The notes: generated by a model from the letters alone, not told the origin. A DNA stretch of 64,000 nt from an uncultured Candidatus Saccharibacteria bacterium (GCA_964506305.1 CAZDKD010000001.1:8031-72030), one strand, 5' to 3'; numbered from the stretch's first letter, positions 13,766 through 58,555 are shown. Translations and numbers: made by a program.

Positions 13766-13841
13766 TTGACAAACTCCTAATTCTGTGATATTTTTCATTA
13801 GTGATTAAATGTTCATTTAAAATTTAGAAAGGAGATAGAAA
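13766..13841 (+). promoter_or_regulatory. conserved promoter+5'UTR cassette R5 copy A (TTGACAAACTCCTAATTCTGTGATATTTTTCATTAGT.ATTAAAT.GTTC.TTTAAAA...GGAGAT)
   Basis: -35 TTGACA, extended -10 TGTGATATT, AT-rich UTR, SD GGAGAT; four near-identical copies (13766, 14875, 16419, 17100). Confidence 0.55.
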
Positions 13842-14831
13842 ATGAAAAAGATGATAGAGGTAGGTATTGTAGGATTTGGCAATGTTGGGCGAGGTGTTTT
13901 TAAGGCAGTTGAAAAGAATTCGGACATGGAAGTAGGTGCAATTTTTACACGAAGGCCGGATGTGGTCCGCAAAGAATTAAAAGGGGTTTTTGTTTTTGAC
14001 ACAGAACAAGCTTTTTATACTCCCGGTGCTAGGATTGATGTGATGATTCTTTGTGGGGGATCAAAAGAAGATTTACCGGTTCAGGGGCCAAAGTTTGCCC
14101 AAAAATTTAATACTGTTGACAGTTTTGATACCCATGATGACATTCCTGATTATTTTGAGGCAATGAAACTTTGTTCCGAAGAGGGAAACAACGTATCTGT
14201 TATTTCTGCCGGCTGGGATCCGGGAATTTTTTCTTTAGAGAGAGTTTTTGGAGACGCTTTTCTTCCTCTGGATAATAAAACGTATACTTTTTGGGGAAAG
14301 GGCGTTAGCCAAGGGCATTCGGACGCAGCAAGAAAAGTGAACGGCGTAGCGGACGCCAGGCAATATACGATTCCCTTAGAGAATAGCTTGGAGAAAGTAA
14401 GAAAAGGGGAGAGCCCCACTTTTACCAAGAGGCAAATGCATAAGCGCCTTGTTTACGTTGTTCCTGAAGAAGATGCAGACTTGGAAAGCATTGAAAAGAG
14501 TATAGTATTAATGCCTAATTATTTTAACGAGTATGATACAGAGGTAGTTTTCATTAGTAAAGAAGAAATGAAGAAGAGTCATAGCGATTATACCCATGGA
14601 GGTTTTGTTTTAACATCAGGGGAAACAGGGGAAGGAAATAATCAAATACTGGAATACAAGTGCCATTTGGAAAACAACCCCGAGTTTACAGGAAGTGTTT
14701 TAGCGGCTTGTGCAAGAGCTGCCTCTAAATTAAACAGAGTGGGGAGGAGAGGAGCTTTTACTATGTTAGATATTCCTCCTTGCTATTTAAGCCCCCATTC
14801 TTCATCTTTTTTAAGAAAGAAATTTATGTGA
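13842..14831 (+). CDS. ddh: meso-diaminopimelate D-dehydrogenase
   Basis: Near-colinear match to Corynebacterium Ddh: GIVGFGNVGRGV, DVMILCGGS, GWDPGIFS, TFWGKGVSQGHSDA, RQMHKRLVYVV, NPEFTG, GAFTMLDIPPCYLSP. Confidence 0.85.
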   Translation: MKKMIEVGIVGFGNVGRGVFKAVEKNSDMEVGAIFTRRPDVVRKELKGVFVFDTEQAFYTPGARIDVMILCGGSKEDLPVQGPKFAQKFNTVDSFDTHDDIPDYFEAMKLCSEEGNNVSVISAGWDPGIFSLERVFGDAFLPLDNKTYTFWGKGVSQGHSDAARKVNGVADARQYTIPLENSLEKVRKGESPTFTKRQMHKRLVYVVPEEDADLESIEKSIVLMPNYFNEYDTEVVFISKEEMKKSHSDYTHGGFVLTSGETGEGNNQILEYKCHLENNPEFTGSVLAACARAASKLNRVGRRGAFTMLDIPPCYLSPHSSSFLRKKFM

Positions 14832-17170: not shown

Positions 17171-17812
17171 ATGTTAAAAAAAAGAGTAATTAGCGGCGCA
17201 GTGCTTATATTGTTGTTAATTGGCATGTTTTTTATAGGAAAACCCTGGTTTTACCTGTTATTGACGGTTATTACTGCTTGGGGGATAAGAGAAATTTGGC
17301 TGGTTAATAAGAATAAGCATGAGACAAAGGTTTCTTTTTACCTTTTCTTTATTCTGCCGGCTCTTTACCTTTTCTTCTCGCTTTTTTGGGTAGTTGGCGA
17401 GTTGCGGTGGGGAAGTAACATCTGGTGGCTTATTTCAGCGCTTATTGGAACTTCAGCTTATGACACCCTGGCTTATTTTATCGGTAAAAGCATAGGAAGG
17501 AATAAGATTACGCCAAAGACGAGCCCAAACAAAACATGGGAAGGAACAATGGGTGGCTTTTTAGGCCCGGTTTTAACTGTTGCGATAATAGGAAGATATT
17601 TTCTCTTTCTGAATTGGTTTGAAATAGCAGTTTTTTCTTTAATGATAGGAGTTTTAGCTTTTTTAGGGGATCTTATGGTCTCTTGGTATAAAAGAAGATT
17701 AGGAGTAAAAGACATAGGACATATTATTCCTGGTCATGGAGGTTTGCTTGATAGAATAGATAGTCATCTCCTTGTTTTTTTAGGAGTTTTTTGCTTTCAG
17801 GCGATGATTTAA
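17171..17812 (+). CDS. cdsA: phosphatidate cytidylyltransferase
   Basis: C-terminal signature SWYKRRLGVKDIGHIIPGHGGLLDRIDS. Confidence 0.75.
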   Translation: MLKKRVISGAVLILLLIGMFFIGKPWFYLLLTVITAWGIREIWLVNKNKHETKVSFYLFFILPALYLFFSLFWVVGELRWGSNIWWLISALIGTSAYDTLAYFIGKSIGRNKITPKTSPNKTWEGTMGGFLGPVLTVAIIGRYFLFLNWFEIAVFSLMIGVLAFLGDLMVSWYKRRLGVKDIGHIIPGHGGLLDRIDSHLLVFLGVFCFQAMI

Positions 17813-17918
17813 AAATCAAAGACTCAGCATAAGTTGGGTCTTTTTTATTATAAATTAGCTTGAGTTTTGCTTAAAAAAGAGTTAGTGTGAAAAATAAGAA
17901 AATTTATTTTATAAATCT

Positions 17919-19313
17919 ATGAAAAATCTTTGGATACTTTCAGAAGAACGGCCGAAGAAAGAAGTTATTGGTCAGATTGTAAGAAAGTTTGCTTCAGATA
18001 ATGATCTAAAAATTAAAATCAAGGATATTATAATATTACCCGTTTTTTCTGATAAAAAATTTGTATTTAGATATATTATTAAAGGCATAAATTGTAAAAA
18101 GATAAAAGATATATTTGTTAAATTGGTTAGTGGTAAATCAAGTTTCATCGATTTTTTATTATTCTATCAAGAGAAAGAACCCGATAAAGATTCTAATCCT
18201 TTGTATGCAATAGAAGAAACAAAAACGGATGATTCAGAATCGAGAAACACAGGTGTATACCAAAGATGTAGTAAATTTGTTTTTATTGATTTTTATTATC
18301 CAAAAATAAAAAAGCTAATGCTTTACAATTTACAAATACCTCAAAAAATAAAGGCGACAGAAACAAATATTTTTGGCACCAGGATGCTTTTAACTATTGG
18401 TGTAGAAATTTTAGGCAAGAAACTTGACGATTCTGTTATGAAACCCTTTAGAAGTATTGATGAACTTATCAAGTTTAAAGATTCGATGCGCATGCCTCCA
18501 AAAGGAAATGTGCCGATTAAAATCAAGAAAGAAAAAAATAAATTTTTCATCTCTGGTAAATTATATAAAGCAGGTGGCCTAAGCCATGATCCTAATATTG
18601 GAGCATTAACAATAATTGCGCTTTGCATTAGAAAATGGGAAAAGAAAAAGGATATTGTTATTACTAATCATGGCTTAAAACAAAATCACATTGGAAGAAA
18701 AAATAAATTTATTATTATCGCGAACAAACTTAACATAAAACTGCAAGGATTAAAATTGCCAAAAGCAAAAATAGAACAGCCCTATTGGCACTATGAAGTT
18801 AATGGTGAGAAAGTGGCCTCTATTTTTGTGCATTTAGCAGTCGAGGCATTTACTAATGGACAAATTATTTATGAAAATCATGCTGGCTGTGAAAGAGGTT
18901 ATTTTATTGATAAAAAATTAGGACCAATTGCGATAAAAAAATATAAAAAAGGAAAAAGATCCAAGTATAAGGCAGGCAATAAAAATGCGATTATTTATTT
19001 ACCAGATCTTATCATTTGTGATCCAAAAAGAAATGAGATTGTTAATATCGAAGGCAAAACTTATAGTAAACGCAAACAAGGTATTAGTGAATTAAAAAAT
19101 TACACCTATATCGAGAAAGAATATATAAAGCCGTCTTATCGATCATCAAGGATAAAAAGAGTTGTTGTAGTTTTTGGAGGGGGAAAGAATAAAATTAAAG
19201 AAAATAAAATAGCCTTTATGCTGAACGATAAAGGCGAGATTATCTTAGGTAAAAATCCTCCTGAAATAATAAAAGAAGCAGTAAAAAAACTATTTTCGTT
19301 GCAGAATAAATAG
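17919..19313 (+). CDS. Lys-rich PD-(D/E)XK-motif protein, candidate restriction endonuclease convergent on two adenine methyltransferases
   Basis: Textbook motif IIYLPDLIICDPKRNEIVNIEGK (PD-x14-E-G-K); no other recognisable domain. Confidence 0.35.
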   Translation: MKNLWILSEERPKKEVIGQIVRKFASDNDLKIKIKDIIILPVFSDKKFVFRYIIKGINCKKIKDIFVKLVSGKSSFIDFLLFYQEKEPDKDSNPLYAIEETKTDDSESRNTGVYQRCSKFVFIDFYYPKIKKLMLYNLQIPQKIKATETNIFGTRMLLTIGVEILGKKLDDSVMKPFRSIDELIKFKDSMRMPPKGNVPIKIKKEKNKFFISGKLYKAGGLSHDPNIGALTIIALCIRKWEKKKDIVITNHGLKQNHIGRKNKFIIIANKLNIKLQGLKLPKAKIEQPYWHYEVNGEKVASIFVHLAVEAFTNGQIIYENHAGCERGYFIDKKLGPIAIKKYKKGKRSKYKAGNKNAIIYLPDLIICDPKRNEIVNIEGKTYSKRKQGISELKNYTYIEKEYIKPSYRSSRIKRVVVVFGGGKNKIKENKIAFMLNDKGEIILGKNPPEIIKEAVKKLFSLQNK

Positions 19314-20354
19314 TTGTTCTTTTACCGCTTTTTTATGTTTTGAATCACCGTTATTGTTACTTTTAAATCTTGGATAATCTATTTCGATCACTTTTAGATT
19401 TCCGTATTTATTTAATACGGAAACTATTTTTTTCTGAGGCATGATGCCTTCTGAATTGTAGCTTAGAATTAGGAATTTATACCTTGCGCTTCTTGCAATC
19501 CTGTTGAGGGCAGAAAGTGCAGACTCTGGATTGCAGAATTCTGATTTTTGCTTATTATAATTCCTCATTCCTGTTTTGCCCTTGATTTTTGGATTATCAT
19601 ATTTTGCGATCGTTTCCAGCAGATGATAATTACTAGCATATTGCCTGTTATTGTAGGGAGGGTCTATATATAGAATATCAACATCCAAATTATCTATAAG
19701 CTCCATGCTATCTTTATTAAAGACAGAGTGTTTTTTGTTGCTTTTATATATTCTTATGGGTCTTATTTTGAATTTTTTTAAGGCTCTTGGGTCATAATTT
19801 TTTAGAAAAGCAGCATAAACACCGGATATATTTGCATAAAAGGGGACGCTTCCTATTAAGGATGCAAGCAATATAAAATATTCATTTTTATCAATCAGTT
19901 TTGTTTTTTTCCATTCTTTTATTTGTGTTCTTATCGCGTCAATTTTCATTCCATTCTTAGCAGTAAAATATTTTCTTTGAAATTTGTCATTCTTTGTTCC
20001 TTCTTCTGTATAGTTTTTATAAATAAAGCCCTTAGTTTCCTTTAGGTTATTCAAATAATCTTGAACTAATTCTAATGACGAAACAAAAAAGCTATTTTTT
20101 GGTAGTGGGACAATCTTATCTAATAATCTTTGGAAGCTTGGCTCTTTATTGTTTTGGATATATGCCTTTTGTAAAATATAAGAGAAATACAAAACATCAG
20201 AGGAAATGATCCTGAATCCTTTTTGCTTAAAAAATCTGCCGACACTACTTGTTCCTGAAAAAAAATCGCAGAATATTCCTTCTGTTGTGCCGGTTGATAT
20301 TACTGCTTGATATATATAATCAAGCAGTTTTTCTTTACTGCCTATAAACCTCAT
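19290..20354 (-). CDS. D12-class N6-adenine DNA methyltransferase (second MTase of the pair)
   Basis: N-terminus MRFIGSKEKLLDYI, SAM-binding region FCDFFSGTSSVG, catalytic ILYIDPPYNN. Confidence 0.75.
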   Translation of the reverse strand: MRFIGSKEKLLDYIYQAVISTGTTEGIFCDFFSGTSSVGRFFKQKGFRIISSDVLYFSYILQKAYIQNNKEPSFQRLLDKIVPLPKNSFFVSSLELVQDYLNNLKETKGFIYKNYTEEGTKNDKFQRKYFTAKNGMKIDAIRTQIKEWKKTKLIDKNEYFILLASLIGSVPFYANISGVYAAFLKNYDPRALKKFKIRPIRIYKSNKKHSVFNKDSMELIDNLDVDILYIDPPYNNRQYASNYHLLETIAKYDNPKIKGKTGMRNYNKQKSEFCNPESALSALNRIARSARYKFLILSYNSEGIMPQKKIVSVLNKYGNLKVIEIDYPRFKSNNNGDSKHKKAVKEQLFILQRK

Positions 20355-20355
20355 T

Positions 20356-21924
20356 TTAATAATTTGTGATAAGTAGTTCTGAAACTTTTCCTCGTTTGTC
20401 TTTTTTACAATTTAGAGACCTATTTGATAACATTTCATGTATTTTATAGTTGTGATATAAATTATTTATAAATTTGCAATCTGAATTAGATAGCATTATC
20501 TTAACTTTCTTTTTAGTAAGTTTATCTATAGCTTTTTTTAGTCTTTCTTGGTCTTCTTTATAGAATTTTTCTTTTGTATATCTATTAAAGTCTGAGTATT
20601 TTGAAACAGGGAAATAGGGGGGATCTAGATAGATAAAATCATCTTTATTAGCTTCTTCTAGAATTTTTTCGAAGTCTGCGCATTTTATACTTGTATTTTC
20701 TAAAACTTGGCTTACTTTTTGGATATTGTCCTTATCACAAATTAATCTATTGAGAGAACTCCCAATAGGCACATTAAATTGTCCTTGTTTATTAACCCTA
20801 TATAAAGCATTGAATCCTGTTTGGTTCAAATAAATCATTCTTGCTGCTATCTCGGCGTTATTTAATTTATCAAAGATATTTATTTCTCTATCTAGGTTAC
20901 GAACTTTTATATGGAGATCTTTTGAATGTCTTATTTTTAGTCCTCTTAATAGTTTAGCCACCCGTTCCGGATTATCTCTAACGCCCTGATAAGTTTTAAT
21001 CAATTCAGCGTTATTATCTCTCAAAACTGCTTTAGATGGTTTTAGATAAAAAAACATCGCCCCTCCTCCAAGAAAGGGCTCGTAATAAGTTTTGAACTTT
21101 TTAGGTAGGAATTTTTTATATTGAGAAATCATTTCTCTTTTTCCTCCTACCCATTGAAGAAATGGTTTCGCTTCCCTGTTTGCAGATGAACCGTTTAAGC
21201 GCTTTGCGTTTTTAGTAAATGGAGAGGCATTAATTATTTTAGTAAGCGGACTATTTTCTTTTAACTGTGATTCAAGGCTTCTTATAATTTCTACAACAAT
21301 TCCTTTTACTTCTACTTCCTTTCTGAAAATGGGGAACAGTGTTGGATTCGCCGGTTGTAATCTTATCCTGTTTTTTTCGTGATATATTTTTTTAAGAGTT
21401 GCCTCGTTGTCATCAATAATAGCTACTATTGTTTGTCCATCTTCAGCTGTTTGTTGTTCTTGGATTATAACTATATCTCCGTCAAAGATACCTTCTCCAA
21501 TCATGCTATCGCCTTCTACTCTTAAGGCGTAATGTTTAGTATGATTGTTAATTTGTTTTCTGGGAACGGTAATTACTTCATCTGGAATTTCAAAAGTCTC
21601 AAATGGTTTACCGGCTGCTATTATTCCAAGTAGGGGAATTTCTACTAGACCTGCAGGTTTTTTATTATCTGATATTTCTATTGATCGGGCGTGATAGTTG
21701 GTTTTATTTAGATATCCTTTGGATTTTAGTGATTCAATATGCTGGTGGACAGTGGATACAGAAGACAATTTAAAATGCTCCTTTATTTCCTCTAGGGAAG
21801 GAGCATAATCATTTTTTTTAATGAATTTTGTAATATAATCTAGTATTTGTTTTTGCCTTTTTGTTAACATAATTTGGGTTAAGAGTTTTCCACAACCTTG
21901 ACGGGTTGACCTAGTTTTCCCCAT
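20356..21924 (-). CDS. LexA repressor (wHTH + S24 peptidase) fused in-frame to a Dam-family N6-adenine DNA methyltransferase
   Basis: LexA: DBD LTKRQKQILDYI...SSVSTVHQHIESLKSKGYL, cleavage site GIIAAGKPF, Ser EGDSMIG, Lys EATLKKIY; Dam: LQWVGGK, EPFLGGGAMFF, LNQTGFNALYRVNKQGQFNVPIG, FIYLDPPYFP, IMLSNSD; single 522-aa ORF, stop overlaps start of next MTase. Confidence 0.75.
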   Translation of the reverse strand: MGKTRSTRQGCGKLLTQIMLTKRQKQILDYITKFIKKNDYAPSLEEIKEHFKLSSVSTVHQHIESLKSKGYLNKTNYHARSIEISDNKKPAGLVEIPLLGIIAAGKPFETFEIPDEVITVPRKQINNHTKHYALRVEGDSMIGEGIFDGDIVIIQEQQTAEDGQTIVAIIDDNEATLKKIYHEKNRIRLQPANPTLFPIFRKEVEVKGIVVEIIRSLESQLKENSPLTKIINASPFTKNAKRLNGSSANREAKPFLQWVGGKREMISQYKKFLPKKFKTYYEPFLGGGAMFFYLKPSKAVLRDNNAELIKTYQGVRDNPERVAKLLRGLKIRHSKDLHIKVRNLDREINIFDKLNNAEIAARMIYLNQTGFNALYRVNKQGQFNVPIGSSLNRLICDKDNIQKVSQVLENTSIKCADFEKILEEANKDDFIYLDPPYFPVSKYSDFNRYTKEKFYKEDQERLKKAIDKLTKKKVKIMLSNSDCKFINNLYHNYKIHEMLSNRSLNCKKDKRGKVSELLITNY

Positions 21925-22006
21925 ATTATAAAATTATAACATACCGAAAGAAAAGCGAAAGTGGAAAACTTTTAAAGGTCGTAAAATAATCAAAATAAAA
22001 AATACT

Positions 22007-22303
22007 ATGGTAAAATTTAATCGAACACAAAAATTTACGAAAGCTAATATTGAAAAAGCGCCTAGGGATAAATCCATTGTTTATAAGTTGAAGAATACGA
22101 CCGGGAAAAATTTATATACGGGCATAGCAGGTCGTGGGAGGACACAAGATAGACTGCTAGAACATAAAGAATTGAAGCGAGAAAAAATCCCTGGCGCAAC
22201 TCAATTTCAGTTTGCTCAAGTAAAAAATAAAGATAGAGCAGAACAGGTTGAAAAGCAAATAATTCGAAAAGAGCAGCCAAAGTTTAATGAGCAAAATAAA
22301 TAA
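22007..22303 (+). CDS. GIY-YIG nuclease-like small protein
   Basis: VYKLKNTTGKNLYTGIAGRG...RLLEH resembles GIY-(10)-YIG with downstream R and E. Confidence 0.4.
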   Translation: MVKFNRTQKFTKANIEKAPRDKSIVYKLKNTTGKNLYTGIAGRGRTQDRLLEHKELKREKIPGATQFQFAQVKNKDRAEQVEKQIIRKEQPKFNEQNK

Positions 22304-26766: not shown

Positions 26767-28464
26767 ATGACTCAACAAGAAGCATTAGATATATTAAAAC
26801 TAGGGCATAATATCTATTTAACGGGTCCGCCGGGAAGCGGGAAAACTTTTTTGTTAAATAAATATATTGATTATTTGAAAAAAAATCACAGAGGGGTGGC
26901 AATAACTGCCTCTACTGGAATTGCTGCCACCCATATGCAGGGAGTTACTATTCATTCTTGGTCAGGTATGGGCATTAAAGAAAAACTTACCGAGAGAGAT
27001 CTCGGAAAACTTCTGAAGAAATCTTATCTTAGGAAAAGATTTAGAAATACCGGGGTGCTTATTATTGATGAGATATCAATGCTTCATGCTTTTCAGTTTG
27101 ATTTAATAAATTTTATCTGTCAGGCATTTAAAAATAGCGCAAAGCCTTTTGGCGGAATGCAGGTGGTATGTTCGGGTGATTTTTTCCAGCTTCCTCCTGT
27201 GCAGAAAGGAGAAAAGCCGAAATTTGTCACCGAATCAAAGGCATGGGAAAATGTGAATATGAAAATATGTTATCTTGAAGAACAGTATCGTCAAGAGGAA
27301 AATGGCGCATTACTCACCTTGTTAAATCATATTCGAAATAATGAGATTAATGAGGCAAAGGAGTTATTAGCCGACATAGACAGCGAAGAAAAAGTATGTT
27401 CAACCAAGCTTTATACTCATAATGTGGATGTTGCAGCTATTAATAATTCTGAATTAGTCAAAATAGACGGGGAGGAGTTTGGGTATGATATGCGCTCCGA
27501 GGGCAATAAAGATATTGTGGTTATGCTCAAGAAGGGTTGTTTGGCGCCCGAAAAGTTGATTCTTAAAAAAAAGGCCAAAGTAATGTTTGTAAAAAATAAT
27601 TTCGATAAGGGCTATGTAAATGGCACTCTTGGCGAGGTAATTGGTTTTGATGTTGATGGGTTGCCTGTTATAAAAATTACTGGGGGCGAACATATTGTTG
27701 CCAGACCTGCAAGCTGGACTATTGAGGAAGATGATGTTGTTAAAGCTGAAATTAGTCAAATTCCTCTTCGTCTGGCCTGGGCCATAACGGTGCATAAAAG
27801 CCAGGGCATGAATCTTGATGCTGCTGAAATTAATCTTTCTAAATCATTTGTTGAAGGAATGGGGTACGTGGCCCTTTCCAGGCTGCGTTCGCTTGCAGGG
27901 TTGAAACTTATGGGAATAAATGAGTTAGCTCTTACGGTCAATCAAGAGGTTTCGGAGTTAGATAGGGTATTAAAACAGATGTCGCAGGAAGTGACTGAAT
28001 ATTTTAAAAAAATGAAAATATGGGAGAAAAATAAGAAACAAAGACAATTTTTAGATTTTCTCCCCAGAGTTGAACCCGGCAAAAGAGATAAAAAAGAAAA
28101 AAAGAGGCTTGGGCCAACTTATGAAGAGACCAAAATTCTAGTTCGTCAAAAGCTTCCGATTAAAGAAATTGCCGAACATAGATGTTTGAGCGAAGAAACT
28201 ATTATAAGCCATTTAGAGAAATTAAATGCTCGCAAAGAAGAAATTGATTTAGGATATTTACAATTACCGGAAGAACGTTTTAAGAAAATTAAGATGGTCT
28301 TTCAGCAAACCGGTGATTTTAAATTATCTCCGGTTAAACAGATACTTGGTAAAGATTTTTCTTTTCAAGAGATAAGATTAACTCGTTTATTTATAAAAAA
28401 AGATAAAGAAGTTGAAAAATTTGCTGAAAAGGAAGAAGTTTCACAATTAAAAAAATACAAATAA
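26767..28464 (+). CDS. PIF1/RecD-like ATP-dependent DNA helicase
   Basis: Walker A LTGPPGSGKTFLL, ITASTGIAAT, LIIDEISML, GDFFQLPPV, ITVHKSQG; C-terminal HTH-like tail. Confidence 0.75.
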   Translation: MTQQEALDILKLGHNIYLTGPPGSGKTFLLNKYIDYLKKNHRGVAITASTGIAATHMQGVTIHSWSGMGIKEKLTERDLGKLLKKSYLRKRFRNTGVLIIDEISMLHAFQFDLINFICQAFKNSAKPFGGMQVVCSGDFFQLPPVQKGEKPKFVTESKAWENVNMKICYLEEQYRQEENGALLTLLNHIRNNEINEAKELLADIDSEEKVCSTKLYTHNVDVAAINNSELVKIDGEEFGYDMRSEGNKDIVVMLKKGCLAPEKLILKKKAKVMFVKNNFDKGYVNGTLGEVIGFDVDGLPVIKITGGEHIVARPASWTIEEDDVVKAEISQIPLRLAWAITVHKSQGMNLDAAEINLSKSFVEGMGYVALSRLRSLAGLKLMGINELALTVNQEVSELDRVLKQMSQEVTEYFKKMKIWEKNKKQRQFLDFLPRVEPGKRDKKEKKRLGPTYEETKILVRQKLPIKEIAEHRCLSEETIISHLEKLNARKEEIDLGYLQLPEERFKKIKMVFQQTGDFKLSPVKQILGKDFSFQEIRLTRLFIKKDKEVEKFAEKEEVSQLKKYK

Positions 28465-36386: not shown

Positions 36387-37121
36387 ATGAAAGAAAATAA
36401 AAAGTTTGTTATTGCATTAGGAGGCTCGGTTATTTGCCCTAAAGAAATTGACAAAGATTACCTTAAGCGCTTTTTTCAGTTTATAAAAAAGGAAGTAAAG
36501 AAAGGGCGTAAATTTATTATTGTAACTGGGGGAGGATATACTGCCAGGAATTATCAGGCGGTTTCTACCGGAATTAGTCGTGTTTCAAAAAAAGACAGGG
36601 ATTGGCTGGGAGTTTACGCTACTAGGCTCAATGCTCGCCTATTAAAAGCGATTTTCAAGAAAGAAGCCCACCCGTTTATTTTTGATAAACGTTTCAAGAT
36701 TAAAACTTTTGGCAAGCACTCTGTGATTATTGGTTCTGGCTGGCAGCCGGGAAATTCGACAGACTATGTGGCCGTTCGGATTGCCGGTGATTTTAAAATC
36801 AAAAGAGTAATTATTTTAGGCAAACCGGATCATGTCTATACTGGTGATTTTGAAAAGGACAAAAAAGCTAGGCCAATTAAAAAAATAACCTGGAAAGATT
36901 ATTTGAAACTTGTTCCTTCTTCTTGGCTGCCCGGCCTTTCCGCGCCAATTGACCCTATTGCGGCCAGATTGGCAAAAAAAGAAAACATGGAAGTGATAGT
37001 AGCTAACGGCAAAGATTTAAATAATCTAAAAATGATTTTAGAAGAGAAGAAATTTAAAGGAACTATTGTAAAACCAAAACATTATGAAAGTTATATTCTT
37101 AGGAGTGGGAGAAGCCTTTGA
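36387..37121 (+). CDS. pyrH: amino-acid-kinase fold protein, archaeal-type UMP kinase
   Basis: FVIALGGSVI, IIVTGGGYTARNY, GVYATRLNARLL, IGSGWQPGNSTDYVA, IDPIAARLA blocks parallel archaeal PyrH. Confidence 0.55.
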   Translation: MKENKKFVIALGGSVICPKEIDKDYLKRFFQFIKKEVKKGRKFIIVTGGGYTARNYQAVSTGISRVSKKDRDWLGVYATRLNARLLKAIFKKEAHPFIFDKRFKIKTFGKHSVIIGSGWQPGNSTDYVAVRIAGDFKIKRVIILGKPDHVYTGDFEKDKKARPIKKITWKDYLKLVPSSWLPGLSAPIDPIAARLAKKENMEVIVANGKDLNNLKMILEEKKFKGTIVKPKHYESYILRSGRSL

Positions 37122-37836
37122 TGAGAATAATCCAAATAATTCTCATTTAGTTTTAAGCGGTAAAACAAGCTTGTTGTTAGATTGCGGTTTTGTAGCTCCT
37201 TATCAGCTTTGGAAATATAATAATAATCAATCATTTTTAGACGGAGTGTATATTACTCATCCTCATGCCGATCATTATTTTGGATTACCCGCTTTATTAG
37301 TGAGAATGTGGGAGGAGAAAAGAAAAAGGCAGTTTACTATTATTTGCCAGAAGGGTTTTAAAAAGGTTGTTAAGGAAGTATTAGATTATGCCTATAAAGG
37401 GTGTCTTTCTAATTTTAAGTTCAAATTAAACTTTATAGAAATTGAACCGGGCCAGAATATTAAGTTTAAGAATTTAAAACTGTCTTTTGCCTTGGGGCAG
37501 CATTTTGTAAAAAACGTAGCCATTAAAATAAGCGATGGAGAAAAGATTCTTTGCTATAGCGGCGACGGGATAGTTACCAAGCAAACAAAAGAGCTGTATA
37601 ATAGTTCTGATTTGCTTATTCATGAAGCATATTTGTATAATAAACCATATATATATGATAAGAAGAACCACGCAGCTATTGTTGATTTGATAAAAATGGC
37701 TGAAAAGAATAATATTAAATGTTTAGCTTTGACTCATATTAACCGGCGCGTAAGGAAAGGATTGACTAAGAAAAAGATTTTTAGTAAAAAAGTTAAAGTA
37801 ATTGTTCCCAATCCCTTGGAAGAGTATAAATTATAA
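37084..37836 (+). CDS. metallo-beta-lactamase fold hydrolase (RNase Z-like)
   Basis: YITHPHADHYFGLP (HxHxDH), later HEAY and LTHI; overlaps pyrH end in another frame. Confidence 0.6.
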   Translation: MKVIFLGVGEAFDENNPNNSHLVLSGKTSLLLDCGFVAPYQLWKYNNNQSFLDGVYITHPHADHYFGLPALLVRMWEEKRKRQFTIICQKGFKKVVKEVLDYAYKGCLSNFKFKLNFIEIEPGQNIKFKNLKLSFALGQHFVKNVAIKISDGEKILCYSGDGIVTKQTKELYNSSDLLIHEAYLYNKPYIYDKKNHAAIVDLIKMAEKNNIKCLALTHINRRVRKGLTKKKIFSKKVKVIVPNPLEEYKL

Positions 37837-53053: not shown

Positions 53054-54712
53054 ATGAAAAAAGATTTTTCAATTTTAATAGGAGGCGCGGCCGGACAAGG
53101 ATCCCGGAAAGCCGGTCTTATAATCGCCAAGTTATTTTCTGAACTTGGTTATAAGATTTTTATTTATGATGATTATCAATCTTTAATCAGGGGCGGTCAC
53201 AGCTTTTCCCATATTAGGGCTTCGAACGAAAAAGTTTTATCTCATCGAGAGAAAGTTGATTTTCTTTTGGCTTTAAATAAAGAGGTTATTGAAAAACACA
53301 AAAAGAAGCTGGATAAAAAGGGAATTGTTATTTATAACAGTGATGAAATTTCTTTTTCGGGGAAAGATTCTGAAGGAATAGCTATGAAAACAATTGTCAA
53401 AGAAGCCGGTGGGATTCCGATAATGGGGAATACTGCCCTTATTGCCGGTTTTGCAAAAATTATTGGGATTGACTGGAAAATTTTAGAAAAGGTTTTAAAA
53501 AAAGAATTTAAAAAATTCCGAGAGCTTAATTTAAAAATAGCTAAAAGAGCTTTTAGCGAAGCAGAAAGCCTGGTTAAAATTAAGAAATTAAATCAAAAAG
53601 GATTTCCTCTTTTAACTGGTAACGAAGCTCTTTCTTTGGGAGCGGTTAAGGCCGGACTCGATCTTTATATTGCTTATCCAATGACTCCGGCAACAGGAGT
53701 TTTGCATTATTTAGCTAAACATAAAGAAGATTTTAATATAGCTGTTGCTCAATTAGAAAACGAGGTAGGAATTGTAAATGCAGCTGTCGGCGCGGCTTAT
53801 GCTGGGGCTAGAACTATGGTAGGAACTTCCGGAGGCGGTTTTGCTTTAATGACAGAGGGGCTTAGCTTAGCTGCTCAGAGTGAAAATCCTTTAGTAATAG
53901 TAGAAAGCCAGAGGATGTCTCCCGGGACTGGAGTAGCGACTTATAACGGCCAGGGCGATTTATTATTTGCTTTAACCGCCGGACATGGAGATATAGTAAG
54001 ATTTGTTATTGCTCCCGGCGATGCTGACGAGGCCTGTTTTTGGAGCGGGAAAATATTAAATCTTTCCTGGAAATACCAAACTCCCTCAATCTTATTAATA
54101 GATAAGGAGATTTCTGAAAGTACATTTAGTTTTGATGAAAGTATTTTAGATGAAATTAAGCGCGAGGAACCATTGCTTTGGAATAAAAAAGGAAAATATT
54201 TGAGGTATAAAAATACAAAAAACGGAATTTCTCCCCTTGCACTTCCCGGAGAGAAAAATGTAATTTCTAAATCAAATAGTTATGAGCATGATGAATTTGG
54301 TATTACCGTGGAGGATGGAAAAAGTACGGAAGAAATGCAGAATAAAAGATTAAGAAAATTTGAAGAAATGAAAAAAGAAGTGGATAAATTAAAGGCAGTT
54401 AAGGTTTGCGGGAAAAAAGGATCTAAAAAAGCGATTATTATTTGGGGTTCAACAAAGGGGCCGGCGAAGGAAGCAGCCGAAAAATTAGGCATTAAAATGA
54501 TTCAGCCGATTATCCTTGAGCCGTTTCCTGAGAAACAAATGAAGCGCGCCCTAAAAGGAGTTAAAAAAATTGCTTTAGTTGAAACAAATGGCTTAGGGCA
54601 AATGGAAAAGGTCTTAAATTGTTACGGGATAAAGGTGGACAAGAAAGTTCTAAAATATGATGCCAGGCCTTTTTTGCCGGAGGAGATAGAAAGAAAGTTA
54701 AGAAAATTTTAA
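53054..54712 (+). CDS. 2-oxoacid:ferredoxin oxidoreductase, fused gamma-alpha subunit
   Basis: Gamma-like N-term ILIGGAAGQGS...; alpha: LTGNEALSLGAVKAGLDLYIAYPMTPATGVL, GTSGGGFALMTEGL. Confidence 0.75.
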   Translation: MKKDFSILIGGAAGQGSRKAGLIIAKLFSELGYKIFIYDDYQSLIRGGHSFSHIRASNEKVLSHREKVDFLLALNKEVIEKHKKKLDKKGIVIYNSDEISFSGKDSEGIAMKTIVKEAGGIPIMGNTALIAGFAKIIGIDWKILEKVLKKEFKKFRELNLKIAKRAFSEAESLVKIKKLNQKGFPLLTGNEALSLGAVKAGLDLYIAYPMTPATGVLHYLAKHKEDFNIAVAQLENEVGIVNAAVGAAYAGARTMVGTSGGGFALMTEGLSLAAQSENPLVIVESQRMSPGTGVATYNGQGDLLFALTAGHGDIVRFVIAPGDADEACFWSGKILNLSWKYQTPSILLIDKEISESTFSFDESILDEIKREEPLLWNKKGKYLRYKNTKNGISPLALPGEKNVISKSNSYEHDEFGITVEDGKSTEEMQNKRLRKFEEMKKEVDKLKAVKVCGKKGSKKAIIIWGSTKGPAKEAAEKLGIKMIQPIILEPFPEKQMKRALKGVKKIALVETNGLGQMEKVLNCYGIKVDKKVLKYDARPFLPEEIERKLRKF

Positions 54713-57708: not shown

Positions 57709-58555
57709 AAAAATTATTACCGCAATTTTTGCAATTGCGTTTTTAGTTACCCTCTTTTTTTTGACAAAGAACGCCGATCCCGAGTATTTTAAAAACTTAG
57801 GCCTGACTCTTTCTTTGCCCTTGTTTACTTTTTTAATTGCCATAATTGACGGTTTTAATCCTTGCACGATGTGGCTTTTAACTTTTTTGCTTGTTTTGCT
57901 TATTTCTGTTTCCGAAAGTAGAAAAAGAATATTTATAGTAGGATTTAGTTTTGTTTCAGTAGTTTTTATAATTTATTTTTTATTTACAGCTGCTTGGCTA
58001 AACATATTTCGTTATATAGGCTTTATTGATCCTTTAAGAATAACTATTGGAATTATTGCCCTGGTTGCCGGTTTTTATAATTTAAAGTCTTATTTTTTTT
58101 CAAAAACGAGTGTTTGTGTTGGCGGTGTTTGCGAGGCTCAGGACGAATCAAAAGAGAGTTTTTTAAAGAAAGCTATATTCGGGAAAATTAGAAAAATTAC
58201 CGAAATTATAAAAAAAGGATCGATACCTGCCCTAATAATAGCTTCTATTACCATGGCTGTTTTTTCTTCCTTGGTTGAACTGCCTTGTACTGCGGGTTGG
58301 CCTATAATTTATACCGGTGTTCTTTCTTCAAAGTTTTTTGTTCAAACTTTCAATTATTATGCTTACTTGTTTCTTTATAATATCTTTTATGTAGTTCCGC
58401 TTTCAATAATAATATTATTGTTTGGTTGGCTTTTTAAAGGAAAAGGAATTTCCAAGAACCAAATGCAAATGATAAAACTTGGCGGGGGTTTGATTATGAT
58501 TTTTTTAGGAATAATTCTTTTGTTTAATCCAGAATTGCTTATGTTGGTTGAATGA
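57692..58555 (+). CDS. polytopic membrane protein with two conserved Cys (NPC / LPCTAGW), possible thiol-disulfide partner of upstream CxxC protein
   Basis: 7-8 TM; DGFNPCTMW and ELPCTAGWP. Confidence 0.35.
   Translation: MSQLHKKIITAIFAIAFLVTLFFLTKNADPEYFKNLGLTLSLPLFTFLIAIIDGFNPCTMWLLTFLLVLLISVSESRKRIFIVGFSFVSVVFIIYFLFTAAWLNIFRYIGFIDPLRITIGIIALVAGFYNLKSYFFSKTSVCVGGVCEAQDESKESFLKKAIFGKIRKITEIIKKGSIPALIIASITMAVFSSLVELPCTAGWPIIYTGVLSSKFFVQTFNYYAYLFLYNIFYVVPLSIIILLFGWLFKGKGISKNQMQMIKLGGGLIMIFLGIILLFNPELLMLVE

What the first reader, a model, noticed from the sequence alone, without database searches (positions are those of the whole stretch)
17919..21924. LexA repressor fused to a Dam-type adenine methyltransferase, inside a two-MTase plus putative-endonuclease locus
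ORF 20356..21924 (-) is one uninterrupted 522-aa frame. Its first ~215 aa carry every hallmark of LexA: a wHTH DNA-binding domain, an Ala-Gly autocleavage site (GIIAAGKPF), and the S24 peptidase Ser (EGDSMIG) and Lys (ATLKKIY). The rest is a complete Dam-family MTase (QWVGGK, EPFLGGGAMFF, FNVPIG, DPPY, MLSNSD).

Its stop overlaps the start of a second D12-class adenine MTase (MRFIGSK...DPPYNN). A convergent 464-aa Lys-rich protein carries a textbook PD-x14-EGK nuclease motif, giving a DpnII-like gene content.

I do not know a described LexA-MTase fusion. By the established LexA mechanism (RecA*-stimulated self-cleavage separates the DNA-binding domain from the C-terminal domain), SOS induction would detach the wHTH from the methyltransferase. 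That suggests either SOS-gated repression of the locus or damage-dependent release of an active MTase. The locus sits in a block of defence-like genes (GIY-YIG, HEPN-like, GxxExxY) between cdsA and a repeat-rich region.
Basis: partly seen in the sequence, partly recalled or inferred. Interest (0 to 1): 0.85.

Follow-up and report, generated by a model that had tools for sequence, protein, structure and literature searches.

The report
LexA-fused methyltransferase controlling restriction-modification
A complete self-cleaving SOS repressor (LexA) is fused to the protective methyltransferase of a restriction-modification system, and the same design recurs in hundreds of ultra-small (Patescibacteria/CPR) bacteria across unrelated methyltransferase families, which suggests these defence systems are wired to sense DNA damage.

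Summary
ORF 20356-21924(-) is one frame encoding LexA wHTH + S24 peptidase + Dam/DpnM-type MTase, each above curated cut-offs. The identical protein was assembled in at least 6 independent samples.

The same LexA clade (54-67% identical) is fused to D12, beta-class N4/N6, C5 and gamma-class MTases. Each is followed by its own convergent restriction endonuclease (MvaI/BcnI, Bsp6I, NgoFVII, EcoRI families). Ala-Gly, Ser and Lys are invariant in 81/81.

All promoters carry a direct-repeat box, (K)TTC-N7-(K)TTC. The window's copy abuts an extended -10. The same box precedes stand-alone lexA and Y-family polymerase genes elsewhere, so it is the lineage's SOS box.

A DnaA-box-like 9-mer accompanies fused promoters (29/29) far more often than stand-alone ones (8/21).

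Best reading: the M subunit represses its own gene, and RecA-stimulated self-cleavage lifts that repression. Self-cleavage and its physiological purpose are inferred. I found no prior description, but one key paper was unreadable.

The parts
20356..21924 (-). LexA-Dam fusion gene (M1). The longest ORF is 522 aa. The probable real start is Met19, ATG at 21870 (504 aa).
21685..21867 (-). LexA winged-HTH DNA-binding domain (aa 20-80).
   Evidence: Pfam PF01726, 3.8e-17. Helices 22-38, 44-51 and 56-68 in the model.
21610..21615 (-). Codons for Ala104-Gly105, the predicted LexA self-cleavage bond.
   Evidence: Invariant in 57/57 Dam-type fusions and in 81/81 across all MTase classes.
21292..21636 (-). 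S24 peptidase / LexA C-terminal domain (aa 97-211) with the Ser140/Lys178 dyad.
   Evidence: Pfam PF00717, 1e-26. Ser and Lys invariant. Foldseek hits to LexA C-terminal domains and to RecA-bound LexA.
20362..21168 (-). Dam/DpnM-type N6-adenine DNA methyltransferase domain (aa 253-521).
   Evidence: TIGR00571, 259.7 bits. DpnM 2dpm, 4.1e-68. Foldseek TM 0.87 at 38% identity.
21946..21960 (-). LexA/SOS box core TTTC-gcttttc-TTTC, a direct repeat with an 11-bp period. The PWM window is 21940-21964.
   Evidence: PWM score 24.8 bits, the top hit in the 64-kb window; shuffles gave 0-1 hits at 12 bits or more. The same repeat is in 77/81 homologous promoters against 8.7 expected.
21933..21941 (-). 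Extended -10 promoter element TGTTATAAT, directly 3' of the LexA box. A second TATAAT lies at 21925-21930.
   Evidence: Read from the sequence. -10 boxes sit in the same position in homologous promoters. The simple -35/-10 scanner does not call it, because there is no -35.
21961..21970 (-). DnaA-box-like element (AGTTTTCCAC on the gene strand) abutting the LexA box. Further copies lie at 21913-21922 and 21884-21894 in the 5' leader.
   Evidence: Repeats found. TTTTCCACA at 21886-21894 is one mismatch from TTATCCACA. The family-wide motif is present in 44/81 promoters against 1.1 expected, and in 29/29 fused against 8/21 stand-alone.
19290..20354 (-). Second D12-class adenine MTase (M2, 354 aa). 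Its start follows the M1 stop by 1 nt.
   Evidence: PF02086, 1.9e-36. Conserved partner in L007, L008, L010, L011, L013, L048, L056, L070 and L092.
17919..19313 (+). Convergent 464-aa putative restriction endonuclease with a BsmI-like fold. It has two conserved PD-(D/E)xK-like motifs: D78...E99-E100-x-K102 and D363/D368...E378-G-K380. Its 3' end overlaps M2 by 24 nt.
19212..19235 (-). Terminator-like hairpin after M2, embedded in the 3' end of the R gene.
19399..19423 (+). Terminator-like hairpin after the R gene, embedded in the 3' end of M2.

Best explanation
The locus is a mobile Type II (probably IIS-like) restriction-modification cassette. It comprises M1 (the LexA-Dam fusion), M2 (a second D12 MTase) and a convergent BsmI-like endonuclease.

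Proposed mechanism:
1. The LexA part of M1 acts as the system's built-in controller.
2. As a dimer it binds the direct-repeat SOS box TTTC-N7-TTTC, which abuts the extended -10 of its own promoter. This represses the M1-M2 operon.
3. DNA damage produces RecA-ssDNA filaments. The damage may include breaks made by the cassette's own endonuclease at unmethylated sites.
4. The S24 domain then cuts the Ala104-Gly105 bond. The wHTH is detached from the dimeric S24-MTase body, repression is lifted and more methyltransferase is made.
5. The result would be a damage-sensing feedback that protects the host chromosome. It would be a Type II counterpart of restriction alleviation.

A DnaA-box-like element next to the LexA box probably adds a second, replication-linked input.

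What is shown: the domain architecture, conservation of the catalytic and cleavage residues, the cassette structure, operator presence and specificity, the operator's identity with the lineage's SOS box, and generality across MTase and REase families.

What is inferred: actual binding, RecA-stimulated cleavage, the direction of the regulatory effect on R, and the physiological purpose.
For: Architecture and authenticity.

Purifying selection on the self-cleavage machinery: Ala-Gly, Ser and Lys are invariant in 57/57 and in 81/81 across all MTase classes.

The cassette is mobile and conserved in unrelated contexts.

R-M identity:
- The convergent ORFs of sister classes are MvaI/BcnI, Bsp6I, NgoFVII and EcoRI family endonucleases.
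- The window's own 464-aa protein is BsmI-like and has two conserved nuclease motifs.

Controller role:
- The identical cassette exists with a Cro/C1-type HTH in place of LexA on M1 (L092).
- Unfused LexA-M-R (L068) and LexA-DpnI (L155) operons exist.
- MTases that autorepress through an N-terminal HTH are an established mechanism (PMC3874152).

Operator:
- The direct repeat is in 77/81 promoters against 8.7 expected.
- It is the top hit in the window.
- In 830 kb of flanking DNA, 60 strong hits lie in the fusions' own promoters and 2 elsewhere.

The operator is the SOS box:
- In an operator-anchored metagenome scan, 61 of 72 downstream genes are lexA-type. Other targets include Y-family polymerases.
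- Direct-repeat LexA boxes with the same 11-bp period are known (GTTC-N7-GTTC, PMC4951493). Patescibacteria LexA is cited as recognising a direct repeat (PMC7739468).
Against: - No experiment has been done. Binding, cleavage and inducibility are all inferred.
- No LexA box precedes the R gene, here or in relatives. How, or whether, R output changes on induction is therefore unknown.
- Terminator-like hairpins just past each convergent gene argue against extensive convergent-transcription interference.
- The cleaved product keeps the S24 domain attached to the MTase. Cleavage might instead target the MTase for degradation, as with LexA fragments in E. coli, which would give the opposite physiological outcome.
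- Whether this genome also has a stand-alone LexA is unknown. Only 64 kb was seen, and it holds a single LexA.
- M1 and M2 specificities are unknown. GATC depletion in the window is modest (obs/exp 0.62) and not unique among palindromes.
Confidence: 0.6

Rival explanations
1. The fusion is the cell's main, or only, SOS master repressor. In many Patescibacteria the housekeeping LexA happens to be fused to an R-M methyltransferase. It would control the whole small SOS regulon, including lexA and Y-family polymerases, and not merely its own cassette. This is not mutually exclusive with the best explanation.
For: - The operator in its promoter is the same box found upstream of stand-alone lexA and Y-family polymerase genes.
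- NCBIfam scores it as a lexA equivalog.
- Among the 80 closest genomic relatives, only 2-3 are stand-alone.
- No second LexA is present in the window or in any fetched locus.
Against: - The cassette sits in different neighbourhoods in different genomes, so it is mobile and not a conserved chromosomal locus.
- Stand-alone ~205-aa LexAs with conserved lexA-fur-ahpC synteny and the same box exist in the lineage. These look like the housekeeping copy.
- Fused promoters carry an additional DnaA-like box (29/29) that most stand-alone ones lack (8/21, p=5.7e-7). That marks them as a distinct class.
Confidence: 0.2
2. Cleavage acts post-translationally on the enzyme and not on transcription. One version: the uncleaved dimer is operator-tethered or sterically inhibited, and SOS-induced cleavage releases an active S24-MTase. 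The opposite version: cleavage exposes degrons, so the MTase is destroyed and restriction is unleashed, giving abortive-infection or addiction-type killing of damaged or infected cells.
For: - The cleavage site lies between the wHTH and the S24-MTase body, so the MTase stays attached to the dimerisation domain.
- The N-terminal fragment would end in ...I-A-A, with I102 and A104 invariant. From my own knowledge, this resembles the ClpXP-recognised end of cleaved E. coli LexA.
- The cassettes sit in defence contexts in some genomes, for example next to a patatin + CD-NTase pair in L010/L011.
Against: - The near-universal operator overlapping the promoter is most simply explained by transcriptional autoregulation.
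- Sister cassettes use a plain HTH on the same MTase, which has no proteolytic switch.
- Nothing suggests that MTase activity is inhibited in the fusion.
Confidence: 0.12
3. The LexA module is only a DNA-binding and dimerisation scaffold. Self-cleavage is vestigial, and the system is a constitutively autorepressed SsoII-type R-M system with no SOS link.
For: Non-cleaving LexA/CI-like repressors exist (own knowledge). The HTH-only variant of the cassette works without a protease domain.
Against: Ala-Gly, Ser and Lys are invariant in 81/81 sequences whose LexA halves have diverged to about 50-60% identity. That conservation is not expected for a vestigial active site. The operator is shared with bona fide SOS genes.
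Confidence: 0.06
4. Assembly or frameshift artefact joining separate lexA and dam genes.
For: None found.
Against: The identical protein occurs in at least 6 independent assemblies. Dozens of diverged full-length homologues exist. Hundreds of analogous fusions to other MTases exist.
Confidence: 0.01

Closest known systems
MTases with an N-terminal HTH that autorepress their own gene (M.SsoII/M.Ecl18kI, M.EcoRII, M.MspI, M.ScrFIA; reviewed in PMC3874152)
   Same: A DNA-binding domain is fused to the N-terminus of the R-M methyltransferase, and the operator overlaps the M promoter. The window's cassette also exists with exactly such a Cro/C1-type HTH on M1 (L092).
   Different: Here the fused regulator is a complete LexA: a winged HTH plus a self-cleaving S24 peptidase with an intact Ala-Gly/Ser/Lys. 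This adds a RecA/SOS-responsive switch. The operator is the host lineage's SOS box, not a private operator.
Canonical LexA SOS repressor (TIGR00498), especially LexAs with direct-repeat boxes (Alphaproteobacteria GTTC-N7-GTTC, PMC4951493; Patescibacteria, Sanchez-Osuna et al. 2017, not readable here)
   Same: - Full-length match to the LexA equivalog model.
- Cleavage site and catalytic dyad present.
- Autoregulatory box in its own promoter.
- The box has the same 11-bp direct-repeat geometry and is shared with Y-family polymerase genes.
   Different: - It carries a ~270-aa DNA methyltransferase at the C-terminus.
- It resides in a mobile R-M cassette.
- Its promoter has an extra DnaA-box-like element.
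C (controller) proteins of Type II R-M systems
   Same: A dedicated transcription factor inside an R-M unit that binds an operator in its own promoter. Unfused LexA-M-R and LexA-R operons of this clade (L068, L155) have a C-protein-like layout.
   Different: C proteins are small stand-alone Cro/C1-type HTH activator-repressors that switch R on. Here there is no box at the R gene. The regulator is LexA-type, usually fused, and presumably signal-responsive.
DpnII / MboI / LlaDCHI GATC systems (DpnM + second MTase + REase)
   Same: M1's MTase domain is closest to DpnM (233 bits, TM 0.87). The layout is two MTases plus one endonuclease.
   Different: M2 is D12-class, not the beta-class DpnA type. 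The endonuclease is unrelated to R.DpnII and resembles BsmI. The R gene is convergent. Specificity is unknown.
BsmI-type single-chain, two-site Type IIS endonucleases
   Different: Only 11% identity and about 200 aa shorter. There is no sequence-level homology to any solved structure or Pfam family, and the activity is untested.
Restriction alleviation of Type I systems after DNA damage (ClpXP degradation of HsdR; own knowledge)
   Same: The same functional logic as proposed here: DNA damage shifts the R/M balance towards protection of the host chromosome.
   Different: A completely different mechanism and system type. It is proteolysis of the R subunit, as opposed to a LexA self-cleavage switch on the M gene.

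Membership tests
LexA (TIGR00498 / PF01726 + PF00717) | N-terminal LexA-type winged-HTH DNA-binding domain | tested here: met
   PF01726, 3.8e-17, aa 20-80. TIGR00498, 188.9 bits against a cut-off of 110.95. Foldseek hits to Thermotoga and E. coli LexA.
LexA (TIGR00498 / PF01726 + PF00717) | S24 peptidase domain with a Ser/Lys dyad and an Ala-Gly scissile bond | tested here: met
   PF00717, 1e-26. A104-G105, S140 and K178 invariant in 57/57 and 81/81.
LexA (TIGR00498 / PF01726 + PF00717) | Autoregulatory LexA box in its own promoter | tested here: met
   TTTC-N7-TTTC at 21946-21960 abuts the -10 box. It scores 24.8 bits, the top hit in the window, and is conserved in 77/81 promoters. This is sequence evidence only; binding was not tested.
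LexA (TIGR00498 / PF01726 + PF00717) | RecA*-stimulated self-cleavage | not testable with these tools
   Needs biochemistry.
LexA (TIGR00498 / PF01726 + PF00717) | Controls an SOS regulon (repair and translesion synthesis genes) | tested here: inconclusive
   The same box precedes Y-family polymerase genes on other contigs. No further credible site was found in this 64-kb window, and the rest of the genome was not available.
Dam / DpnM family (TIGR00571, D12 class) | D12-class fold with the motifs FxGxG (EPFLGGGA) and DPPY | tested here: met
   TIGR00571, 259.7 bits. DpnM 4.1e-68. TM 0.87. Motifs invariant.
Dam / DpnM family (TIGR00571, D12 class) | GATC specificity | tested here: inconclusive
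   GATC obs/exp is 0.62 in the window, third lowest of 16 palindromic tetramers but close to several others. A methylome or an enzyme assay is needed.
Type II restriction-modification system | MTase gene(s) tightly linked to a cognate endonuclease gene and moving as one unit | tested here: met
   M1-M2 and the convergent ~460-aa ORF are conserved in at least 9 unrelated contexts.
Type II restriction-modification system | The partner protein is a DNA endonuclease | tested here: inconclusive
DpnII-type system | R.DpnII/MboI-family endonuclease and a beta-class DpnA-type second MTase | tested here: not met
   The 464-aa protein gives no Pfam hit. M2 is PF02086 (D12), not PF01555.
SsoII-type self-regulating MTases | An N-terminal DNA-binding domain on the MTase, with the operator overlapping the M promoter | tested here: met
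   The mechanism is defined in PMC3874152.
SsoII-type self-regulating MTases | The regulator is a simple Cro/C1-type HTH without a signal-sensing domain | tested here: not met
   The regulator is a LexA wHTH plus an S24 peptidase. The HTH_26 version is a sister variant (L092).
C-protein-controlled R-M | A separate small C gene, with a C-box upstream of C/R | tested here: not met
   There is no separate regulator gene in the cassette. No operator precedes R.

The most novel reading that the evidence does not exclude
Patescibacteria and some Omnitrophota harbour a large, previously unrecognised class of damage-sensing Type II R-M systems. A self-cleaving LexA, fused to the methyltransferase (or occasionally encoded just upstream), couples R-M expression to the host's RecA/SOS signal through the lineage's own SOS box. 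It also couples it to DnaA through an adjacent, phased DnaA box. This would make the R-M unit a homeostatic circuit that senses its own autoimmunity. Because the fused LexAs share the SOS box, mobile R-M cassettes would also feed back on the host SOS regulon.
Probability: 0.45. Interest if true: 0.85.

Novelty: new variant of a known kind. Interest (0 to 1): 0.78.

Why it matters
R-M systems are the commonest bacterial defence. How they avoid killing their own host is a long-standing question. The known answers are C proteins, HTH-bearing MTases, antisense RNAs and, for Type I systems, proteolytic restriction alleviation.

A full LexA fused to the MTase would be a new solution for Type II systems: a direct sensor of DNA damage built into the antidote. 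Points that raise its importance:
- It recurs with at least four MTase superfamilies and at least five endonuclease families.
- It is found in hundreds of species-level genomes.
- That pattern points to a modular, selectable design principle and not an accident.
- It appears to be a dominant form of LexA in the CPR, organisms that cannot be cultured and whose regulation is almost unknown.

It is directly testable with purified protein (self-cleavage, EMSA) and with reporters in surrogate hosts.

It also means that database annotations of these proteins capture only half of each protein. NCBI names them 'transcriptional repressor LexA' and JGI names them 'DNA adenine methylase'. SOS-regulon reconstructions in Patescibacteria should take the R-M-borne LexAs into account.

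Tried and rejected
- Palindromic LexA box. Only long-range or weak inverted repeats turned up, and comparative analysis showed the operator is a direct repeat.
- GATC avoidance as a proxy for specificity was inconclusive.
- Generic DnaA-box enrichment in the window: there is none (16 observed against 15.9 expected). The enrichment is specific to LexA-MTase promoters.
- Phage origin: only 7 close relatives in 2.9 million viral contigs, all stand-alone LexAs on inovirus-like elements. I rejected this as the main habitat.
- An apparent 94%-identical LexA shared between the Dam and N4/N6 classes was my own misclassification of a truncated sequence, L030. I discarded it.
- PWM hits at 13821-13845 and 58185-58209 in the window are an RBS region and an intragenic site respectively. 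I treat both as spurious.
- Convergent-transcription interference as the way R would be down-regulated is weakened by the terminator-like hairpins. I keep it only as a possibility.
- I could not read Sanchez-Osuna et al. 2017. A window protein at 53054-54712 is not on record, so the right-hand end of the window was not annotated.

Full report
**1.

- 20356-21924(-), 522 aa;
- 19290-20354(-), 354 aa, starting 1 nt after the first ORF's stop;
- 17919-19313(+), 464 aa, convergent and overlapping the 354-aa gene by 24 nt.

The 522-aa protein has three domains by Pfam: LexA_DNA_bind (aa 20-80), Peptidase_S24 (aa 97-211) and MethyltransfD12 (aa 258-499). It exceeds the curated NCBIfam cut-offs for both the lexA equivalog (188.9 against 110.95 bits, model positions 4-202 of 203) and the dam family (259.7 against 114.85 bits).

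An AlphaFold model (pLDDT 76) shows a wHTH, an S24 beta-domain and an MTase. Its Foldseek hits are DpnM (E 5.5e-22, TM 0.87, 38% identity), E. coli and T4 Dam, and LexA from Thermotoga and E. coli.

The junction is not an artefact. The identical protein is on contigs from at least six independent samples. At least 56 further database clusters at 57-72% identity have the same three domains. In 57 aligned homologues, A104-G105, S140, K178 and the MTase motifs are invariant.

One correction. The first 18 residues are missing in relatives and disordered in the model. Met19 (ATG at 21870) is therefore the likelier start.

**2. It is a mobile three-gene R-M cassette**

In relatives at about 60-65% identity, the fusion is always followed by a ~352-aa D12 MTase and a convergent ~460-aa ORF. 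The flanking genes are entirely different between genomes (L007, L008, L010/L011, L048, L056, L070). The GIY-YIG, GxxExxY and DUF5680 neighbours in the window are not conserved with it.

The 464-aa protein belongs to a family of more than 2,000 'hypothetical' proteins with no Pfam domain. The family is also found in Bacteroidota, and there is no PDB sequence hit.

The family alignment has two conserved D...ExK-type motifs: D78/E99-E100-K102 and D363/D368/E378-G-K380. Two nuclease sites in one chain plus two separate MTases fit an asymmetric (Type IIS-like) site. That is inference.

The MTase domain of the fusion is closest to DpnM. M2 has no solved relative. GATC is only modestly depleted in the window (0.62), so the specificity remains open. 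The system is not DpnII-like in its R or M2 components.

**3. The fusion is one instance of a general architecture**

I scanned one genome per species (GTDB) with the LexA half and found at least 488 relatives. Of the best 80 (54-67% identical to the window's LexA half), only 2-3 are stand-alone. The rest run on into DNA methyltransferases of different superfamilies:
- D12 (several subtypes);
- beta-class N4/N6 (PF01555, including a ~621-aa permuted form, the commonest);
- C5-cytosine (PF00145);
- gamma-class N6/Eco57I-like (PF02384).

Each class has its own ORF lying tail to tail with the M gene. Where these ORFs can be identified, they are restriction endonucleases: MvaI/BcnI, Bsp6I, NgoFVII and EcoRI families.

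Ala-Gly, Ser and Lys are invariant in 81/81 sequences. LexA halves are about as similar between classes (56-60%) as within them (60-66%).

In a library of 1.8 billion cluster representatives, the ~60 best clusters (49% identity or more) are mostly 300-890-aa proteins with LexA at residues 1-197. Canonical ~200-aa LexAs take over below about 48% identity.

Hosts are overwhelmingly Patescibacteria, with some Omnitrophota.

**4. The LexA part behaves as the R-M controller**

Three lines of evidence:
- The very same cassette (M2 of 352 aa, convergent 464-aa ORF) exists with a Cro/C1-type HTH in place of LexA on M1 (L092). Such HTH-Dam proteins are the closest non-LexA relatives of the MTase half.
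- Unfused versions exist. In L068, a 196-aa LexA sits 23 nt upstream of an N4/N6 MTase and a TdeIII endonuclease. In L155, a 211-aa LexA sits 6 nt upstream of a DpnI-family enzyme.
- MTases that repress their own promoter through an N-terminal HTH are an established mode of R-M control (PMC3874152, section 'Antitoxin as a transcriptional regulator').

**5. The operator**

Upstream regions of 81 LexA(-MTase) genes share a direct repeat, NTTC-N7-NTTC. The consensus is tgACTTTCgaTTTATTTTCgaTAat. It occurs in 77/81 against 8.7 expected by shuffling. It usually abuts the -10 box. In about 15 cases it is inverted and lies between the -10 and the start codon.

In the window, the site is TTTCgcttttcTTTC at 21946-21960(-), immediately followed by TGTTATAAT at 21933-21941. 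At 24.8 bits it is the top PWM hit in 64 kb, and shuffles gave 0-1 hits at 12 bits or more.

In 830 kb of flanking DNA from relatives, 60 strong hits fall in the fusions' own promoters and 2 elsewhere. None precedes an R gene.

The geometry equals the known direct-repeat LexA box of Alphaproteobacteria, GTTC-N7-GTTC (PMC4951493). Patescibacteria LexA is cited as recognising a direct repeat (PMC7739468, citing Sanchez-Osuna et al. 2017, which I could not read).

**6. The operator is the lineage's SOS box**

I scanned metagenome contigs for KTTCGGT-N4-KTTCGGTATAAT, a query independent of any protein. It returned at least 120 sites. Of the 72 with a downstream ORF, 61 drive a LexA-type gene: 21 complete stand-alone and 29 complete fused.

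Two of the remaining targets are Y-family (IMS) polymerases, and another stand-alone lexA has one nearby. Some stand-alone lexA genes share lexA-fur-ahpC synteny (L085, L128, L134, L168) and look like the chromosomal housekeeping copy.

So the R-M fusions are plugged into a genuine SOS circuit. Cross-talk with host SOS genes is expected.

**7. A second promoter element**

A 9-mer identical to the DnaA box (TTATCCACA/TGTGGATAA) or one mismatch from it lies next to the LexA box:
- its core occurs in 44/81 promoters, against 1.1 expected;
- it occurs in either orientation;
- box-to-repeat offsets cluster at 0-2 nt and 11-16 nt, about one helical turn apart;
- in the operator-anchored sample it is present in 29/29 fused promoters but in only 8/21 stand-alone ones (Fisher p=5.7e-7).

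The window has TTTTCCAC-type copies at 21961-21970, 21913-21922 and 21884-21894. DnaA boxes are not enriched in the window at large. Binding by DnaA is an inference from sequence identity.

**8. Mechanism proposed**

Shown:
- the architecture;
- selection on the cleavage machinery;
- the operator, its placement and its SOS identity;
- the R-M context;
- interchangeability with a plain HTH.

Inferred:
- the fusion dimer represses the M1-M2 operon at the SOS box;
- RecA* triggers Ala104-Gly105 cleavage and derepression;
- the resulting rise in MTase protects the chromosome when damage, including self-restriction, occurs. This would be a Type II analogue of restriction alleviation.

Weak points:
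- there is no box at R;
- terminator-like hairpins lie after both convergent genes, so an effect on R through convergent transcription is doubtful;
- the fate of the S24-MTase fragment is unknown, and it could be degraded, which would give the opposite outcome;
- I cannot tell whether this genome also has a stand-alone LexA (one LexA in 64 kb).

**9. Rivals**

- The fusion is the cell's global LexA. This is plausible and not exclusive, but cassette mobility, the existence of syntenic stand-alone lexA genes and the distinct promoter class all argue that the fusions are a mobile-element variant.
- Cleavage acts on the enzyme, by activation or destruction. This is possible and untested.
- The protease is vestigial. 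This is unlikely given 81/81 invariance.
- Artefact. This is refuted.
- Phage origin. This is rejected, with only 7 stand-alone relatives on small Zot-encoding elements.

**10. Novelty**

Full-text searches found no description of such fusions. The terms combined LexA, S24 or LexA-like with methyltransferase, restriction-modification, Patescibacteria or CPR. The 2013 review of R-M regulation mentions LexA only for toxin-antitoxin systems.

Database names cover only one half of the protein: 'transcriptional repressor LexA' at NCBI and 'DNA adenine methylase' at JGI.

I class this as a new variant of a known kind: a self-regulating R-M methyltransferase that carries a signal-responsive LexA switch. 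It is widespread, modular and directly testable.

Noticed in passing
window 21884-21894, 21913-21922, 21961-21970; family-wide in L012-L091 and L105-L184: A DnaA-box-identical 9-mer (TGTGGATAA / TTATCCACA; TTTTCCAC-type in the window) flanks the LexA box. It is present in 29/29 fused LexA-MTase promoters against 8/21 stand-alone lexA promoters. Its spacing to the LexA box is phased, at 0-2 or 11-16 nt. Whether DnaA or another factor binds it is unknown.
   Followed up: partly
L094-L100 (IMG/VR contigs of 6-9 kb): These are small 'viral' contigs. They encode a stand-alone LexA of the same clade (194-208 aa) with the same SOS box and a TTGTCCACA box. They also encode a Zot-like ATPase, and L099 has a divergent N4/N6 MTase. 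They look like inovirus-like elements of Patescibacteria that carry their own LexA.
   Followed up: partly
L068:6001-8978 and L155 (lexA followed at +6 nt by a 256-aa ORF): Unfused operons of the same LexA clade. L068 is LexA + N4/N6 MTase + TdeIII endonuclease. L155 is LexA + a DpnI-family (methyl-directed) endonuclease.
   Followed up: partly
window 17919-19313 and P0121-P0240: The 464-aa protein defines a large unannotated family: more than 2,000 members, about 462 aa, 55-70% identical across Patescibacteria and Bacteroidota such as Capnocytophaga and Flavobacterium. It has a BsmI-like fold and no Pfam model.
   Followed up: partly
L010:3948-5790 / L011:150-1992: In one lineage the cassette lies directly beside a patatin phospholipase + CD-NTase pair (CBASS-like), that is, in a defence island.
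   Followed up: no
many loci; window 21900-21908: A short GTCAA(T) motif recurs about 8-15 nt upstream of the start codon of LexA(-MTase) genes, where a Shine-Dalgarno sequence would be expected. It may be the remnant of an inverted second operator (…TCGAAAGTCAA), or a translation signal.
   Followed up: no
window 21893-21908: A hairpin (CAACC-cgtcaa-GGTTG on the gene strand) lies in the presumed 5' leader of the fusion mRNA, between two DnaA-like boxes. The terminator scan picked it up on the opposite strand.
   Followed up: no
window 17700-22100: Terminator-like hairpins are over-represented in this stretch (12 found against 1.9 expected). Some of them lie inside coding sequence, for example 21059-21079, which encodes EPFLGGGAMFF.
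   Followed up: no
L085, L128, L134, L168: Stand-alone lexA genes have conserved lexA-fur-ahpC synteny, the SOS box and no DnaA-like box. They are candidates for the housekeeping LexA of some Patescibacteria.
   Followed up: partly
window 37084-37836 (= L093:10698-11450) and 26767-28464: A 250-aa metallo-beta-lactamase-fold protein is annotated with the Anti-Pycsar Apyc1 family (PF23023). A 565-aa PIF1-type helicase lies elsewhere in the window. Neither was examined.
   Followed up: no
L014, L017, L075, L083: The beta-class LexA-MTase cassettes also have a two-MTase layout: a LexA-N4/N6 MTase, a 248-258-aa second N4/N6 MTase, and a convergent ~431-aa ORF without a Pfam hit. This parallels the window's Dam-type cassette.
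   Followed up: no
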